Assembly: GCA_024959305.1 (NCBI GenBank)
Contig: JANXGQ010000036.1
Location: forward strand, 8,624 to 72,623
From: Porticoccaceae bacterium
Lineage (GTDB): Bacteria; Pseudomonadota; Gammaproteobacteria; Pseudomonadales; Porticoccaceae
Length of the DNA: 64,000 bases
Reading direction: 5' to 3'
Shown here: in pieces, positions 15,179 through 58,010 of the stretch
Position numbering within the stretch: position 1 is the stretch's first letter
Layout: each line of letters begins with the position of its first letter
Notes under the pieces: model-generated
Told to the model about the DNA's origin: nothing
The model's database searches: none
What the model saw: only the letters and a program-made list of their open reading frames with translations
Made by a program: the position numbers and the translations under genes

Positions 15179-17009
15179 CTACTTTAGAAACCGACTAATT
15201 CTCTCCAGCACATTGGTTACCTGCTCTGTATTTAGAGCTTTATCCATTCTCCGGTTAGTTCTATCCAGTGATTGATAACCACCAACTGCGTTAACCTCCA
15301 AGATAGAATCAGCACTGATAATACTATAAGCACTGTAACTCGAAGAAATGACCCAATCGCGCTGATCAAAACTACCGAATAGATCAACACCCGTTGAGTA
15401 ATCTGTGATGTTATTGGTCACTCCTAGGTAGTTCTTCATTAACGTCGGCACCACATCCTCATGGGAGGTGAAGCTATTCAAATACTGTTTGTTCGCCTTA
15501 TCCAATACCTGCGGACCAATCAGAAGAAATGGCACTTTTACCTGTGAATTAGTGAAATTACTGTTGTGACCCCAGAAGTTAAGCTTGTTGTCATTCAGCT
15601 CCTGTCCATGGTCGCCAGTAATCAGGATCATGGTATCGTCTAACATACCCTGTGCTTGCAGCGTCTCAATCACCTCTTTTACCAGACTGTCAACATAGCT
15701 AACACTGGCCTTATAGCGATTAAACAACGGTGTTGGGTCTGTATCCTTGCTTAACAGCAAGTAATTCAACTCTTTCAGCATAGGCTCGAATTTTGACTCA
15801 TAACTTGTCGGGAAATCATAGCCGTGTGGAGAATCAAAAAACAAAAATGAAACCACTGGTTTTGAACGGCTCGACGACTGATACCAAGCCTTCCAATCAT
15901 CGATTAAATCTCGATCTCTCTCTGATACTGTATTGCCTTCAGAACCAATGCGCAAATCAGGTACATGACGGAAAACCGTGCGATCAAACTCAGGGTTGAT
16001 AAGCTGTGCAGAAGCAAAAATGCCAAGTTGGTAATCCAGCTGTTGTAATCTATCAACCAATACTGATGAACGTTGATTGGCTAGAAAAGCATGCCAATAG
16101 GCTCCCGGAATACCGTAAAATAAGCCAAAAATTCCGGTTCGAGTAGAATTACCCGCCGACATATGGTCGTTATAAACTAACCCTTTCTTAGAAAGCTCCC
16201 AGATTGTAGGCATTACCTCTGGCGTAAAAGTATCATAGCGCCAGCTATCGATCACCAGGAACAAAATATCTTTAGGCCGCTGTGGAGCCTGCCCTGCAAT
16301 AGGGTTTAGCGGATAACTCAAATCCCCCTTTGCCATCCACCTTTAAACGCCGCTGCTGTTCAATCGCAACCAAGTCTACCCAGCCTAACTTTTGGAGCTG
16401 TGAGTTGGCAGTCAATGGATAGTACAGGGGCAAGTATCGACTGACCATAGATACTGGCTGGTTTGCATATGCAAAAGCCCAAGCATGAATTAGATTGGCG
16501 ACAATAAATACTGCAAATATAGAGTAGCCTAGCTTGCGCCCCAGCTTCGGTTTAATGCTTTGTTGTTTACGCTCTAGTAAAGAGACTAACCAAAATTCAA
16601 GTATTAAAACCGCAACCAAACCGCCGATAACCATTAACCAGACTGTGAGGGGGAAACTGACAATATCGCCCGCTAGAATTAGCCCCACTACTACCGCATT
16701 AATATGGAATCTGTATTGAGCAAAGACAATCGTGTCCATAAATAACAGCATCAACCCCAATGCTCCAATCAGGGCAATCACCAGTCTTCGAGGGGTCTGC
16801 TGAAGAAACAGAGCTGGCAGTAAAAACAGCCCAATCACCATAGCTAATAGGCTCATCTGCCCAATGGTGGAAGTGATAACAAATACTGTTGATAACCAAG
16901 TAACCAGTTCAGCTGGAAAAAATATAAAAAAGCGCGTAGAAATTAAAGAGGCGAAAAGCGCATTGATCAGGATAAACCAGCCCAGCGCACGATGATTGTA
17001 TTTGGCCAT
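15179..17009 (-). pseudogene. yejM: DUF3413/sulfatase-like LPS homeostasis protein (YejM/PbgA/LapC family), split by a one-base frameshift
   Basis: ORF 16272..17009 encodes the multi-TM N-terminus (RYLPLYYPLTA). ORF 15179..16336 encodes the sulfatase-like domain (FLVIDSWR, GNSTRTGIFGLFYG, ITGDHGQE, WGHNSNF). Removing one G from the G5 run (C5 at 16324-16328) restores ...VDGK-GDLSYPL. Could be an assembly error. Confidence 0.8.
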
Positions 17010-20817: not shown

Positions 20818-21653
20818 TCAGCTAACAACGCAAGATATCCCTCTTTATAGGAGGGATATTTAAATGGGTAGCCAGCCTCTAAAAGCCGGCGGTTACTACA
20901 GCGTCGCGTGGCACTCAGTTTGACCGATTCTTCAGTCAGCTCAACCGACATTTGAACAGCTAACCATCGGCGCAGCTGATGTTGGGTTACCGGCTCTGAA
21001 TCCGACGCCAAATAAATATTTTGAAGCCTCTCTCCGCCGCCAAAAAGGCCTATTAAATGGGCCAATACGCCTGCACAATCCTCACGGTGAATGCGGTTGC
21101 TCCACTGTTCTGGCTGTGCTGGCCGGCCTTTTCCGGCAATTATTTGATTGAGCATTCTGCTGCGTCCGGAGTCGGCGCCATAGATACCAGAAAATCTAAC
21201 CAGCGTATTGGCACAGGGTAGGCGCTGAATAATCTGCTCGGCCTGTAACAGTATCTGCCCAGAAAATGTTTGCGGCTCAGCCGCGGAGCATTCATCCACC
21301 CAAGCGCTTCCGCAATCACCATAGACACTGGTGCTGGACACCCAAATAACCAACTTTGGCGGTCTTTGCGTAGCCGTAACCGCGGTTAATATGGAGTCGG
21401 CGGCAGCTAGATATGAATCGCGATAGGCCTGCTCGGTAAATTCTGCCGGGGTCAGGGTAGCCACCCAAATATCAAAACCTTGGGACACCGCCGATTGTAA
21501 CTGCTCGGGGTCAGTGATATCGCCGGCAATAGCAATTATCCCTGCGCGCAGGTTTTTTGGATTGCGCTTACATCCAAAGCATTGATGCTTATCGGCCAAT
21601 AATGCCGCGACCCGCTGTCCAATATCACCACAACCAAGAAAAAGGATTTTCAA
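20814..21653 (-). CDS. Atypical SDR / NAD-dependent epimerase (YeeZ-like)
   Basis: LGCGDIG nucleotide-binding motif, [23 protein letters not shown]. Confidence 0.88.
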
Positions 21654-21721
21654 TTAAAATTCTCACTCTTATTAAAATTAGCTATTATGAGCCATAAAAT
21701 ACTCAAAACGAGAAAAGCCCG

Positions 21722-21913
21722 ATGACATTCACAGTACTTTGGTCAGGCCGCGGAACCCTGCAATCAGAGTCAGCTTCTATCCTCACCATGACCGCAGGCA
21801 GCTCACTGGAAACGCTCTATTATAGGCTCGCATCTGGCTTGGGTGTTGTCATTTTTCCACAATCCGCATCTCTGGATCCCAATTTTAAGGGGTCAGGGCT
21901 GGTCACTGGCTAA
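21722..21913 (+). pseudogene. oxyR: Heavily deleted relic of the LysR-type regulator OxyR
   Basis: Starts MTFT (OxyR: MTLT). A shifted frame at 21732-21773 reads QYFGQAAEPCNQSQ (cf. HFGRAAERCHVSQ in the HTH). 21797-21868 reads GSSLETLYYRLASGLGVVIFPQSA (cf. SSLETIRHMVASGLG..LP.SA). The stop overlaps the recG ATG, the oxyR-recG position known in Pseudomonas. Confidence 0.8.
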
Positions 21914-24024
21914 TGCCTGCACTCAGCCTAGACAAAATAGCGACTAACCAACTGCGGGGTGTCGGTCCTCAGCTAGCCAAGCGGCTACAAAAACTGGGAT
22001 TGCGCAACCTGCAAGATCTATTGTTTCATCTGCCACTGCGCTACGTAGACAGAACCCAAATAACCCCGATCAGCAGCCTCCAGCCACTGACAGAGGTAGT
22101 TCTCGAAGGACAGATTAAAACTAGCGAGGTTGTTTTTGGCCGCAGGCGAAGTTTGCTGTGCAAGCTTCAGGATAACAGCGGCACCGCTGTATTGAGGTTT
22201 TTTCATTTTAGTCGCGCCCAACAAGAACGCCTAAAACCCGGTGTTCGACTGCGCTGTTTTGGAGAGGTAAGGCGCGGCAGATTTGGTCTCGAACTCTATC
22301 ACCCAGAGTACCAGCATATAGACGGCAACAATGCGGCCAGTTTGGAAAAAACATTAACCCCCATCTATCCCACCACTGAGGGAATCACTCAGGTACGCAT
22401 TAGGGATCTCTGTACTCAAGCATTAGAGCATCTTAACCGCCATGGCATCTCGGAACTATTGCCAGAACAACTTAAACAGCAAATAGGTGGTGCGCTCTCC
22501 TATTCTCTTATCGATGCTCTACAACTTATCCACTCACCGCCGCCAGGTACCGAACTGCATCGCTTGGCCAGAGGTGAGCACCCCGCACAGCAACGATTAG
22601 CGGCAGAAGAACTGATTGCACACAACCTGAGTCTTTTAAAATTACGGCAAAAAGTTCAGCGCCAGCAAGCCCCAATACTGGTAGAAAATAAGGCGGCTCT
22701 AAATAGCCTTCTCGAGCAATTACCCTTTGAGCTCACCGCCGCTCAACAGCGCGTCGCGGCGGATATTCAAGCGGATATCAGTAAAAATATTCCCATGCTG
22801 CGCTTGATTCAGGGCGATGTGGGGTCGGGCAAAACTGTGATCGCTGCTATGGCGGCATTGCAGGCCATCGCCAATGGCAAACAGGCTGCGCTAATGGCTC
22901 CCACGGAAATCCTCGCCGAACAACACCGCATGAATTTTGAGCAGTGGTTTCAGCCTATGGACATTCGCATTGCCTGGTTAACCGGCAAAGTTAAGGGCAA
23001 GGCTCGAGAAATGCAGCTGGAAACTATTGCCAATGGCAGTGCGCAAATGGTGATCGGCACCCATGCACTGTTTCAAGAAAGCGTGCAGTTTAAGGATCTG
23101 GGTTTAAGCATTATTGACGAACAGCATCGCTTTGGGGTCCACCAGCGTCTGGCTCTGCGCAATAAGGGTTTTGGTTGTGACGATTCCCAAAAAGATGCAA
23201 CTGCCCCTCATCAACTTATTATGACGGCAACGCCGATTCCGCGAACATTGGCAATGAGCGCCTATGCCGACCTCGATTGCTCCGTTATTGATCAACTGCC
23301 GCCCGGGCGAACGCCCGTGAAAACAGCCGTATTAAGCAATCTGCGCCGCAATGATATTATTCAACGAGTCAGGGCATCCTGTGCCGACGGACGCCAAGCC
23401 TACTGGGTGTGCACATTGATTGAAGAATCCGATGTACTTGAAGCTCAGGCCGCCGAGGTCACCGCCAACGAATTGCAGCTTATGCTGCCCGAACTGTCCA
23501 TAGGCTTAGTGCATGGCCGCATCAAACCGCGCGAAAAATTAGCGGTGATGGATGCCTTTAAATCTGCTGAGATAAATTTGCTGGTGGCGACCACGGTCAT
23601 AGAGGTGGGTGTGGATGTGCCCAATGCCAGTTTAATGATTATTGAAAATGCCGAGCGCTTGGGATTATCGCAATTACACCAACTCAGAGGCAGAGTGGGC
23701 CGAGGTGCAATTCAAAGCCATTGTGTTCTGCTCTACAGTCATCCCATATCCGCCAATGGCAGTGCGAGATTAAAGATTATGCGCGAAACCACCGACGGTT
23801 TCGCCATTGCAGAGAAAGATCTTGAATTAAGGGGGCCGGGGGAGTTGCTGGGCACGCGCCAAACCGGCGATATGCAACTACAAATTGCCGACTTACAGCG
23901 CGATGCACAGCTGCTACCACAAATAAAACAAGCTGCCGAGAGTCTTCTTAACCATCACCCCAACAATGTCTCAGCACTGATCGATCGCTGGCTGGGTTCA
24001 AGTGAACAATATGCGCAGGCATAA
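21913..24024 (+). CDS. recG: ATP-dependent DNA helicase RecG
   Basis: QGDVGSGKT, MAPTEILAEQH, DEQHRFG, MTATPIPRTL, QLHQLRGRVGRG, DLELRGPGE. Confidence 0.98.
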   Translation: MPALSLDKIATNQLRGVGPQLAKRLQKLGLRNLQDLLFHLPLRYVDRTQITPISSLQPLTEVVLEGQIKTSEVVFGRRRSLLCKLQDNSGTAVLRFFHFSRAQQERLKPGVRLRCFGEVRRGRFGLELYHPEYQHIDGNNAASLEKTLTPIYPTTEGITQVRIRDLCTQALEHLNRHGISELLPEQLKQQIGGALSYSLIDALQLIHSPPPGTELHRLARGEHPAQQRLAAEELIAHNLSLLKLRQKVQRQQAPILVENKAALNSLLEQLPFELTAAQQRVAADIQADISKNIPMLRLIQGDVGSGKTVIAAMAALQAIANGKQAALMAPTEILAEQHRMNFEQWFQPMDIRIAWLTGKVKGKAREMQLETIANGSAQMVIGTHALFQESVQFKDLGLSIIDEQHRFGVHQRLALRNKGFGCDDSQKDATAPHQLIMTATPIPRTLAMSAYADLDCSVIDQLPPGRTPVKTAVLSNLRRNDIIQRVRASCADGRQAYWVCTLIEESDVLEAQAAEVTANELQLMLPELSIGLVHGRIKPREKLAVMDAFKSAEINLLVATTVIEVGVDVPNASLMIIENAERLGLSQLHQLRGRVGRGAIQSHCVLLYSHPISANGSARLKIMRETTDGFAIAEKDLELRGPGELLGTRQTGDMQLQIADLQRDAQLLPQIKQAAESLLNHHPNNVSALIDRWLGSSEQYAQA

Positions 24025-44932: not shown

Positions 44933-44995
44933 CTGGACTACCACAGGTTTGAAGCAAAATTGGATCAGCTGTTCACAACTGGTGAAGATCTGTAG
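44933..44995 (+). pseudogene. prpB: Relic of the last about 20 codons of 2-methylisocitrate lyase
   Basis: LDYHRFEAKLDQLFTTGEDL* matches the PrpB C-terminal YH.FE.KLD.LF pattern and directly precedes the prpC relic. Confidence 0.72.
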
Positions 44996-45014
44996 CAACC
45001 ACAGGGAGACAATT

Positions 45015-45131
45015 ATGGCTAAGAGGCAACCCTCTGGCGCTGGACTGCGTGGCCAGTCCGCCGGTACAACCACCCTCTGTACCGTTGGCAAAAGATCATT
45101 CGTGCTGGGTACTTATTTCATATCTGAATAG
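45015..45131 (+). pseudogene. prpC: Relic of the first about 26 codons of 2-methylcitrate synthase
   Basis: RBS GGGAG, then MAKRQPSGAGLRGQSAGTTTLCTVGK (cf. PrpC SGAGLRGQVAGQTAL.TVG). Similarity stops at about 45092 and the frame closes at 45131. Confidence 0.8.
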
Positions 45132-56735: not shown

Positions 56736-56758
56736 ACAACTATTTGCTTGGGTATTCT

Positions 56759-57256
56759 ATGCTCACCAATGCTCGTTTAGTGCATCAACCCCATGATCAT
56801 GTGCGCTGTATCAATGCAGCAATCGCACAAGCTTATGAGTTGTGCGCAAATCTGCAAGTGCGTATGACGCCCACCAGAGAGGCTATCTTAAGGCTACTTT
56901 GGCAGAGCCATCAACCTCTGGGGGCCTATCAGCTACAAGAGCAGCTGGCCAAGGTAACTAACAAGCGTATTGCGCCCCCCACCATCTACCGAGCTATTGA
57001 ATTTCTGCTGGAACTGGGGCTTGTACACCGAATTCCGTCATTAAATGCCTTTTTTGGCTGCCCGTTCCCCAATAGCGAGCACAGCAATATTTTTATGATC
57101 TGCGACCAGTGTAAAAGTGTAGCTGAAGTGGCTGATAAGCAGATTAATAAATTATTGGAAACCCTCAGCCATAAGGCCAACTTTAAACTCCAGACTCGAA
57201 CCATTGAATTATTTGGGCTGTGCCCCAACTGTGAGCTCGGAGAGGCCGATGAATAA
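56759..57256 (+). CDS. zur: Zinc uptake regulator (Fur family)
   Basis: RMTPTR, GAYQL, APPTIYRAIEFL...VHRIPSLNAF, CDQC and CPNC; in the znu locus. Confidence 0.93.
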   Translation: MLTNARLVHQPHDHVRCINAAIAQAYELCANLQVRMTPTREAILRLLWQSHQPLGAYQLQEQLAKVTNKRIAPPTIYRAIEFLLELGLVHRIPSLNAFFGCPFPNSEHSNIFMICDQCKSVAEVADKQINKLLETLSHKANFKLQTRTIELFGLCPNCELGEADE

Positions 57257-58010
57257 ACCGCTTATCAGCCTGAAATCCGTCAGTAAATCATTTGCCGGTC
57301 AGGCAGTGTTACAAAATATCTCTATGTCCATCAGCGGGGGGGAGATCACCACCATTATCGGGCCCAATGGCGCCGGCAAATCCTCCTTGGTACGGATTAT
57401 TCTCGGGCTTATTGAGCCAGATTCTGGAAAGCTAGAGAGCTCTACAGAGCTTAGAATCGGTTATATGCCGCAGAAACTCCATATAGACCCAACCCTACCT
57501 ATTTCGACCTGTAGATTTCTACAGCTGGCCAATACCTCCCACCAAGCCTGCCATAGGGCACTGGATTTAGTGGGTATACCAGAGCTTAACAACAGCCCTT
57601 TCCACAAGCTTTCCGGCGGGGAAATGCAGAGAGCACTGTTGGCCAGAGCCATTTTGCGGGAACCCAACCTTCTGGTTTTGGATGAGCCAGTTCAGGGCGT
57701 TGACCTAAACGGCCAAAACCAGCTCTACAACCTAATTGGAGAGATCAGTAAAAGCCTCAACTGCGCGGTTATTATGGTATCCCATGATCTTCATTTGGTG
57801 ATGTCGGCGACCGATCATGTGATCTGCCTAAACCACCATATTTGCTGTCAGGGGAGGCCGGAGCAGGTGACTCAAAATCCCGCATACCTAGATATTTTCG
57901 GCAAAACTTCTATCTACAACCATCGCCATGACCATCAGCACAGCCTTCAGGGTGAAGTTTTAGATGCGCAGGGCAAGCATCGTCACGGAGAGGGCTGCCA
58001 ACATGACTGA
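57249..58010 (+). CDS. znuC: Zinc ABC transporter ATPase
   Basis: GPNGAGKS, LSGGEMQR, LDEP, VSHDLH, HHICCQGRPE and His-rich C-terminus. Confidence 0.95.
   Translation: MNKPLISLKSVSKSFAGQAVLQNISMSISGGEITTIIGPNGAGKSSLVRIILGLIEPDSGKLESSTELRIGYMPQKLHIDPTLPISTCRFLQLANTSHQACHRALDLVGIPELNNSPFHKLSGGEMQRALLARAILREPNLLVLDEPVQGVDLNGQNQLYNLIGEISKSLNCAVIMVSHDLHLVMSATDHVICLNHHICCQGRPEQVTQNPAYLDIFGKTSIYNHRHDHQHSLQGEVLDAQGKHRHGEGCQHD

What the first reader, a model, noticed from the sequence alone, without database searches (positions are those of the whole stretch)
21722..21913. oxyR reduced to a 192-bp relic upstream of recG
Seen: three collinear OxyR-like pieces (MTFT start; QYFGQAAEPCNQSQ HTH piece in another frame; GSSLETLYYRLASGLGVVIFPQSA from the effector domain) with about 240 codons missing. 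The start position and the TAATG overlap with recG are preserved. Established: oxyR-recG is an operon in Pseudomonas and OxyR is the main H2O2 sensor. Inference: this lineage has lost peroxide-responsive regulation while keeping a mini-ORF, possibly to preserve recG translational coupling. This fits streamlined marine bacteria that rely on community peroxide scavenging.
Basis: partly seen in the sequence, partly recalled or inferred. Interest (0 to 1): 0.62.

Follow-up and report, generated by a model that had tools for sequence, protein, structure and literature searches.

The report
Dead oxyR stub before recG
A small marine SAR92 bacterium has cut its hydrogen-peroxide sensor gene oxyR down to a 63-codon leftover in front of the DNA-repair gene recG, and relatives in the same genus have broken the gene independently at least ten times.

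Summary
Window 21722-21913 is a true remnant of oxyR. It keeps the ancestral promoter region and start codon, 45 nt of the DNA-binding helix read one base out of frame, 46 codons of the effector domain, and the TAATG stop/start overlap with recG. Relative to the nearest intact gene (315 codons), about 756 nt are gone in three deletions of roughly 35, 568 and 153 nt.

The 1.58-Mb, 96%-complete genome (SAR92/HTCC2207, Porticoccaceae) has no other oxyR. It also has no katG, catalase, AhpF, Dps, glutathione peroxidase or PerR. It keeps thioredoxin-dependent peroxiredoxins.

Across 79 species of the genus, recG-linked oxyR is intact in about 51 and degraded in 23, by at least 10 independent events. 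Every intact copy already lacks Cys208. Some clades with a stub carry a second, canonical oxyR beside katG or ahpCF.

Four independent short relics keep both gene ends, and each has members with an open frame running into the recG start. This fits a cis role in recG expression. Translational coupling is plausible (about 40%) but unproven.

The relic itself is ordinary gene decay; the genus-wide pattern is the interesting part. The scan had not noted this locus before on other DNA.

The parts
21654..21721 (+). Intergenic region between the divergent SDR/epimerase-like gene and the old oxyR start. It is the presumed oxyR-recG promoter, with promoter-like sites at 21660-21688 (TTCTCA-17-TATTAT) and 21672-21700 (TTAAAA-17-TAAAAT).
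   Evidence: The promoter scan found 2 sites against 0.7 expected. The region aligns base for base with the oxyR upstream region of G011 and G085.
21722..21913 (+). 63-codon mini-ORF, the whole oxyR relic, running from the ancestral ATG to a TAA that overlaps the recG ATG.
21722..21729 (+). Piece 1: the ancestral start codon and first codons (ATGACATT; MT(L)T of OxyR). A 35-nt deletion covering codons 3/4 to 15 follows.
   Evidence: DNA alignment with 13 congeneric oxyR 5' ends.
21730..21774 (+). Piece 2: 45 nt of the helix-turn-helix (OxyR residues about 15-29, QHFGQAAERCNVSQ). Within the mini-ORF it is read one base out of frame.
   Evidence: Frame +1 translation SQYFGQAAEPCNQSQ. Profile hit of 8.7 bits at positions 13-29. 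33/45 nt identical to G011, and 0 of 1000 shuffles reach the score.
21773..21907 (+). Piece 3: 45-46 codons of the effector (regulatory) domain, OxyR residues about 218-263, back in the ancestral frame. The junction with piece 2 is ambiguous by a few bases. The deletion between them (about 568 nt) removed the wing, the linker helix and the redox Cys199.
   Evidence: Profile hit of 37.2 bits at positions 215-263. tblastn E 7e-7 genome-wide. 30/46 identical to G011.
21908..21915 (+). Last codon, stop, and the TAATG stop/start overlap with recG. An in-frame deletion of about 153 nt (residues about 264-314) lies just before it. The repeated CTGGTCA in the relatives suggests a deletion between short repeats (inference).
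   Evidence: Junction alignments show TAATG, TGATG or ATGA overlaps in nearly all congeners. Tail comparison with G011 and G085.
21913..24024 (+). recG (703 aa), intact. It is the downstream gene of the old oxyR-recG operon, and no Shine-Dalgarno-like motif lies within 25 nt of its ATG.

Best explanation
The 192-bp ORF is a dead remnant of oxyR, the first gene of an ancestral oxyR-recG operon, in a streamlined SAR92 (HTCC2207, Porticoccaceae) genome.

Shown: three deletions of about 35, 568 and 153 nt removed most of the DNA-binding domain, the linker, the redox cysteine and the C-terminal third, so no regulator can be made. The genome has no replacement oxyR and none of the classic OxyR-controlled scavengers (KatG, AhpCF, Dps). 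It is left with thioredoxin-dependent peroxiredoxins.

Inferred:
- Peroxide defence is now constitutive and of low capacity.
- The parts that survive are the ones recG needs in cis. These are the old promoter and start at the 5' end, and the last codons with the stop/start overlap at the 3' end.

Undecided, at about 40%: whether ribosomes reading the mini-ORF help start recG by termination-reinitiation coupling.

The loss belongs to a genus-wide trend. The recG-linked oxyR has lost Cys208 in every intact copy and has been broken at least ten separate times.
For: Relic homology and collinearity.

No other oxyR in the 96%-complete assembly:
- tblastn finds only CysB and other LysRs at 25% identity or less.
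- NF008361 scores 88 bits at best (CysB), against 224.7 bits for a congener's OxyR.

Missing scavengers and sensors:
- katG, catalase, AhpF, glutathione peroxidase, cytochrome c peroxidase, Dps or ferritin over cut-off.
- The only Fur-family genes are Fur and a Zur next to a znuC-like ATPase gene (50, 52).

Retained: PrxC at 350.9 bits, Bcp at 203.8 bits, two further AhpC-TSA proteins, and TrxB (27, 28, 48, 49).

The promoter region is conserved with G011 and G085 and holds promoter-like hexamers.

Genus survey:
- Intact in 51 loci, including two outgroups, and degraded in 23.
- At least 10 state changes on the RecG tree. The AU test rejects a single origin of the five degraded small-clade genomes, p 1.8e-5.
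- Independent short relics in four lineages (G000; G001/G054; G050/G082; G009/G049) all keep the 5' end and the last 8 or so codons with the overlap.
- Cys208 is absent from all 49 genus copies but present in both outgroups.
Against: - The genome is a 97-contig MAG at 96% completeness, so a second oxyR in the missing 4% cannot be strictly excluded.
- Reads could not be mapped.
- No expression data exist for the promoter, the mini-ORF or recG.
- The cis-role argument is comparative only. Three genomes (G006, G060, G079) have lost the whole gene including the old start, yet keep recG. The retained ends are therefore not indispensable.
- Constitutive peroxiredoxin expression is assumed. The prxC promoter is conserved, but the contig ends 119 nt upstream of the gene.
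Confidence: 0.8

Rival explanations
1. Pure neutral debris. The remnant has no cis function, it is simply what deletions have not yet removed, and its open frame is chance. recG is expressed independently of it.
For: - Three congeners (G006, G060, G079) lack any oxyR remnant and still have recG.
- Six genomes of one stub clade carry an in-frame stop 24 codons before recG.
- Four genomes tolerate frameshifted oxyR.
- Lack of a Shine-Dalgarno motif is common here. Only about 35% of long ORFs have one by a crude count.
- For G000 alone, the chance of an in-frame, stop-free outcome is roughly 0.1 (my estimate).
Against: - Four independent short relics all retain the same two ends, and each has members with an uninterrupted frame from the old ATG to the overlap.
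- The intergenic promoter region of G000 is as well conserved with G011 and G085 as the coding flanks.
- The nearest upstream gene is divergent, so recG has no other obvious promoter.
Confidence: 0.15
2. Assembly or binning artefact, or an intact oxyR exists elsewhere in the real genome. In that case regulation is not lost.
For: The genome is a MAG of 97 contigs at 96% completeness. Reads could not be examined.
Against: - The relic lies mid-contig, with more than 20 kb on either side.
- It carries three separate deletions, a frame shift and many substitutions (65% aa identity in the best piece, against 81% for RecG). It is not a clean collapse.
- In every one of about 75 congeners that could be read, oxyR or its remnant sits at this locus.
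- The second oxyR type occurs only in large-genome clades, never in the 18-member small-genome clade.
Confidence: 0.04
3. The 63-aa product is itself functional, as a micro-protein or a truncated regulator.
For: The frame is open and begins at a genuine start codon.
Against: - A third of the peptide is out-of-frame sequence, and the HTH recognition helix, wing, linker and Cys199 are all gone.
- It has no Pfam or NCBIfam match.
- The peptides of the other lineages' mini-ORFs share only ancestry-derived residues and diverge fast.
Confidence: 0.02

Closest known systems
Pseudomonas aeruginosa oxyR-recG operon (Ochsner et al. 2000, J Bacteriol 182:4533, cited as ref. 12 in PMC3378865; original not held)
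   Same: The gene order is the same, with oxyR immediately upstream of recG in one transcription unit. Outgroup families of the same order (G020, G029) and about 50 congeners keep it intact.
   Different: Here oxyR is reduced to 63 codons and cannot encode a regulator. The intact SAR92 versions lack Cys208, which Pseudomonas-type OxyR and both outgroups have.
Natural oxyR pseudogene of Mycobacterium tuberculosis next to ahpC
   Same: A naturally inactivated oxyR with multiple lesions and pieces in different frames is left at its ancestral position beside a gene it once accompanied.
   Different: That case is a pathogen with katG retained and a single fixed event. Here a free-living marine genus shows at least 10 independent events. 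The remnant keeps an open frame that abuts the downstream gene's start.
Black Queen loss of katG in Prochlorococcus and SAR11 (Morris, Lenski and Zinser 2012, PMC3315703)
   Same: A streamlined marine bacterium lacks catalase-peroxidase and presumably relies on neighbours to remove H2O2.
   Different: That work concerns the enzyme. Here the sensor/regulator decays, and it does so in lineages that had already lost katG. The whole small-genome clade lacks katG whatever its oxyR state.
Translational coupling through overlapping stop/start codons, for example trpB-trpA in E. coli (Oppenheim and Yanofsky 1980; from my own knowledge)
   Same: There is a TAATG overlap, no Shine-Dalgarno-like motif before the downstream start, and an upstream frame that is open to the overlap.
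   Different: Coupling has not been measured here. The upstream 'gene' is a remnant whose peptide is not conserved. Some congeners have interrupted or lost it.

Membership tests
OxyR (LysR-type H2O2-sensing transcription factor) | Descent from oxyR: sequence homology and the conserved position upstream of recG. | tested here: met
   The relative's gene best-matches NF008361 OxyR at 224.7 bits, which is below the E. coli-tuned cut-off of 329 but far above all other families.
OxyR (LysR-type H2O2-sensing transcription factor) | Intact N-terminal winged helix-turn-helix DNA-binding domain. | tested here: not met
   Only about 15 codons survive, and they are read out of frame. Codons 4-15 and from 30 onward are deleted.
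OxyR (LysR-type H2O2-sensing transcription factor) | Regulatory domain with the redox-active Cys199 (and Cys208). | tested here: not met
   Residues about 30-217, including the GHCFRDQ motif, are deleted. Intact genus copies have Cys199 but not Cys208.
Pseudogene / gene relic | Multiple disabling lesions relative to intact orthologues at the same locus in relatives. | tested here: met
   Three deletions, two of them out of frame. Intact orthologues are present in G011, G085, G052 and about 48 other genomes.
Pseudogene / gene relic | Relaxed selection on the remaining coding sequence. | tested here: inconclusive
   The effector piece is 65% identical to G011, against 89% for G011-G085 and 43% for G011-G052. 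The segment is too short for dN/dS.
Translationally coupled upstream ORF (leader) for recG | The stop codon of the upstream ORF overlaps or abuts the downstream start, and the downstream gene lacks its own Shine-Dalgarno. | tested here: met
   TAATG at 21911-21915, and no SD-like 3-4-mer within 25 nt. The SD criterion is weak in this genome.
Translationally coupled upstream ORF (leader) for recG | Downstream translation depends on translation of the upstream ORF. | not testable with these tools
   This needs reporter fusions or ribosome profiling. The comparative signal is mixed.

The most novel reading that the evidence does not exclude
After oxyR died, selection repeatedly shaped its remains into a short in-frame leader ORF. 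The ORF runs from the old start codon to the TAATG overlap, and its only job is to deliver ribosomes to the recG start. A regulator gene has in effect been turned into a coupling leader. This happened independently in at least four SAR92 lineages. In G000 it took two deletions, each out of frame, that together restore the frame.
Probability: 0.35. Interest if true: 0.6.

Novelty: new member of a known kind. Interest (0 to 1): 0.45.

Why it matters
The relic on its own is an ordinary by-product of genome reduction. The context gives it value. SAR92 is an abundant coastal bacterioplankton group. Here the master peroxide regulator is caught at every stage of decay:
- Cys208 is missing throughout the genus.
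- One full-length copy (G053) has Cys199 replaced by Ser.
- Other genomes carry frameshifted genes, 115-codon and 50-codon stubs, a 63-codon mosaic, or nothing at all.

Some large-genome clades replaced it with a canonical oxyR-katG or oxyR-ahpCF cassette. This extends the Black Queen picture from scavenging enzymes to their regulator. It predicts that many SAR92 lineages cannot mount an inducible peroxide response, which bears on their cultivation and on their dependence on 'helper' bacteria. The repeated survival of the two gene ends offers a natural experiment on how a downstream gene constrains the decay of its upstream operon partner.

Tried and rejected
- Pfam and NCBIfam scans of the 63-aa ORF and of the out-of-frame helix peptide returned nothing because the pieces are too short. 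Only lineage-specific tblastn and a genus profile detect the homology.
- An Rfam scan of 21500-22100 on both strands found no RNA family.
- The Ochsner 2000 paper (PMC94625) is not held. The operon claim therefore rests on its citation in PMC3378865.
- I looked for loss of an OxyR box upstream of prxC. Some oxyR-intact congeners have CTAT-N7-ATAG-like or CTAT...CTAT motifs just upstream of a conserved TTGAAA-17-TATGCT promoter, and G000 does not. But intact G052 also lacks the motif, and the G000 contig ends 119 nt upstream of the gene. The result is inconclusive.
- The argument 'recG has no Shine-Dalgarno, therefore coupling' was weakened. Only about 35% of long ORFs in this genome have an SD 4-mer by a crude count.
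- I considered that another LysR protein might be a diverged OxyR and rejected it. C76 is CysB (572 bits, over cut-off). C32 and C19 match other families and lack the GHC motif.
- I considered a PerR-type sensor and rejected it. The two Fur-family genes are Fur and a Zur beside a znuC-like gene.
- Literature searches found no report of oxyR decay in SAR92 or Porticoccaceae.

Full report
**What is there.** Window 21722-21913 is a 63-codon ORF: MTFTVLWSGRGTLQSESASILTMTAGSSLETLYYRLASGLGVVIFPQSASLDPNFKGSGLVTG. Its TAA overlaps the ATG of a 703-aa recG as TAATG. The surrounding genes are rpoZ, spoT, a ridA-family gene, a divergent SDR/epimerase-like gene, the mini-ORF, recG, a TIGR00153/PhoU-like gene and pitA. 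The window is contig C67:8624-72623 of a 1.58-Mb assembly with 97 contigs at 96% completeness. Public records of its congeners are titled Porticoccaceae, SAR92 clade or HTCC2207.

**Is it oxyR?** Yes. In congeners the gene directly upstream of recG is a 305-318-aa LysR protein. Its best NCBIfam match by far is OxyR, NF008361, at 224.7 bits.
- Using one such protein as tblastn query against the whole G000 assembly, the relic is hit at E 7e-7 (residues 218-262, 51% identity). A second collinear hit covers residues 16-29 in another frame.
- A profile built from 51 intact genus and outgroup OxyRs scores the effector piece at 37.2 bits (positions 215-263). It scores the helix piece at 8.7 bits (positions 13-29, frame +1).
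- None of 1000 shuffles of the 192 nt reaches 8.7 bits.
- At DNA level, the 68-nt intergenic region and ATGACA align with G011 and G085. These are the intact genes to which the relic is most similar. A 35-nt gap follows, then 45 nt matching the helix codons at 33/45.
- The effector piece, SASILTMTAGSSLETLYYRLASGLGVVIFPQSASLDPNFKGSGLVT, is 30/46 identical to G011.

**The deletions.** Against the 315-codon G011 gene, the losses are about 35 nt (codons 3/4-15), about 568 nt (codons 30-217) and about 153 nt (codons 264-314). That is 756 nt in all.
- The first two deletions are each out of frame but sum to 603 nt. This is why the helix piece is read in the wrong frame while the start and the effector piece share one frame.
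- The third deletion is in frame. It may have occurred between two CTGGTCA-like repeats present in the relatives (SGLVT... and ...PLLV(K/N)R*). That is an inference.
- The DNA-binding domain, the linker and the GHCFRDQ redox motif are gone, so no regulator can be made.

**Is the function lost from the genome?**
- No other oxyR was found. The remaining LysR genes are CysB (572 bits, over cut-off) and others at 25% identity or less. The OxyR model scores 88 bits at best, on CysB.
- Absent are katG, monofunctional catalase (absent from all 79 genomes), AhpF (only TrxB), glutathione peroxidase, cytochrome c peroxidase and Dps or ferritin over cut-off.
- The two Fur-family genes are Fur and a Zur next to a znuC-like gene, so there is no PerR.
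- Retained are peroxiredoxin C (350.9 bits, over cut-off), Bcp (203.8 bits), a signal-peptide-bearing Bcp-like protein, a Prx5-like protein and TrxB.
'Reliance on community scavenging' is plausible, but basal thiol peroxidases remain.

**Genus-wide picture.** I fetched the recG locus from the 79 species genomes of the genus and two outgroups. I then scored the upstream DNA with OxyR.

| State of recG-linked oxyR | Genomes |
|---|---|
| Intact | 51 loci, including the two outgroups |
| Frameshifted or internally deleted | G013, G086, G090, G066 |
| 63-codon mosaic | G000 |
| N-terminal stub of about 115 codons | G003, G041, G080, G009, G049 |
| Stub of about 50 codons | G001, G054, G050, G082, G042, G031, G081, G071 |
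| No detectable remnant | G006, G060, G079, G032, G047 |
| At a contig edge, not readable | six genomes |

- On a RecG tree, G000 sits in a 100%-supported clade of 18 small genomes (1.0-1.8 Mb), whose early branches G011, G085 and G052 are intact.
- Parsimony needs at least 10 intact/degraded changes. An AU test rejects a single origin of the five degraded small-clade genomes, p 1.8e-5. That group was named after seeing the tree.
- None of the 49 intact genus copies has Cys208; they carry L, I, M or F instead. Both outgroups have Cys199 and Cys208. One full-length copy (G053) also has Cys199 replaced by Ser.
- A second OxyR at 31-34% identity lies divergently beside katG in G003 and beside ahpC-ahpF in G031 and G041. 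It has the canonical Cys-x8-Cys motif (HCLKDQILDTC).
- By coordinates it is also adjacent to katG or ahpC in G009, G049, G080, G046, G054, G042, G071, G032, G047, G081 and G001.
- This second copy occurs mainly in the clades whose recG-linked gene is a stub, which reads as functional replacement. Neither G000 nor the rest of the small clade has it.

**Why these pieces survive.** The oxyR stop overlaps or abuts the recG start (TAATG, TGATG, ATGA) throughout the genus. Four independent short relics all keep the promoter and start end plus the last 8 or so codons with the overlap. They are G000; G001/G054 and kin; G050/G082; and G009/G049 and kin. Each lineage has members whose frame is open from the old ATG to the overlap, at 63, 63-64, 65-81 and 126-138 codons, even though the peptides have diverged heavily. 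One further 54-nt deletion inside a stub is also in frame. This fits selection for recG expression signals, and possibly for ribosomes reaching the recG start.

**Evidence against strict coupling.**
- Six genomes of one stub clade share an in-frame stop 24 codons before recG, and G031 has several stops.
- G003, G041 and G080 end 7 nt before the ATG in another frame.
- G006, G060 and G079 have lost everything.
- Four genomes tolerate frameshifts.
- Absence of a Shine-Dalgarno motif is common in this genome.

I therefore hold the cis role of the promoter and junction as likely, and translational coupling at about 40%.

**Artefact check.** An assembly collapse is unlikely for three reasons. The relic is mid-contig. 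It carries three separate deletions, a frame change and many substitutions. Equivalent decay is seen in many independent assemblies.

**Comparison with the known.** The operon is the one described in Pseudomonas aeruginosa (Ochsner 2000, cited in PMC3378865). A naturally dead oxyR is classic in M. tuberculosis (from my own knowledge, and scan note e1-2543912). katG loss in streamlined plankton is the Black Queen case (PMC3315703). I found no report of oxyR decay in SAR92.

**Verdict.** The relic is a new member of a known kind, a gene remnant. The recurrent decay, the genus-wide Cys208 loss and the repeated in-frame stubs are, as far as I could search, undescribed. They are of moderate interest.

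Noticed in passing
L003-L080 (recG-linked oxyR of 49 congeners); outgroups L019, L020: Every intact recG-linked OxyR in the genus has Cys199 but lacks Cys208 (L, I, M or F instead). The two outgroup families have both cysteines. G053 (L025) is full-length but has Cys199 replaced by Ser. The genus's OxyR may be a one-cysteine type or already impaired, which could explain why it is lost so often.
   Followed up: partly
L107 (G003:C20), L108 (G031:C2), L109 (G041:C42): A second OxyR (31-34% identical to the recG-linked one) carries the canonical HCLKDQILDTC two-cysteine motif. It lies divergently next to katG or ahpC-ahpF, mainly in clades whose recG-linked oxyR is a stub. It looks like replacement by a cassette.
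   Followed up: partly
L014, L068, L071, L072, L076 (about 45 nt before recG): In the 50-codon-stub clade the deletion junction reads TTGACA-16 nt-TACACT, ending 6 nt before the recG ATG. This is a promoter-like site placed to give a leaderless recG mRNA. The intact relative G083 has ATGACA at that spot. It is not present in G000.
   Followed up: no
Genus katG loci: G007:C44, G046:C7, G071:C2, G081:C53/C57: Several katG genes carry an internal stop or are split in two. Only 20 of 79 genomes have katG over the family cut-off, and none has a monofunctional catalase. Peroxide-enzyme loss appears to be ongoing in the genus.
   Followed up: no
G053:C22:40632-42734 (L025): The recG of G053 shows one in-frame TAA in the search output. 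This is the same genome whose OxyR has Cys199 replaced by Ser.
   Followed up: no
G000:C6:1-131 (L082) and L110-L125: prxC has a conserved TTGAAA-17-TATGCT promoter and a strong GGAG ribosome-binding site in all genomes. Some oxyR-intact congeners have CTAT-N7-ATAG-like motifs just upstream. G000 lacks them, but its contig ends 119 nt upstream of the gene.
   Followed up: partly
window 56744-58010: A Fur-family gene (170 aa) directly precedes a znuC-like ABC ATPase and overlaps it slightly. It is probably Zur, not a peroxide sensor.
   Followed up: partly
window 16272-16336 and 44933-45131: Earlier first-reader notes describe a frameshifted yejM-like gene and a stranded prpB-prpC junction in the same window. 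If real, they fit ongoing gene decay in this genome. I did not check them.
   Followed up: no
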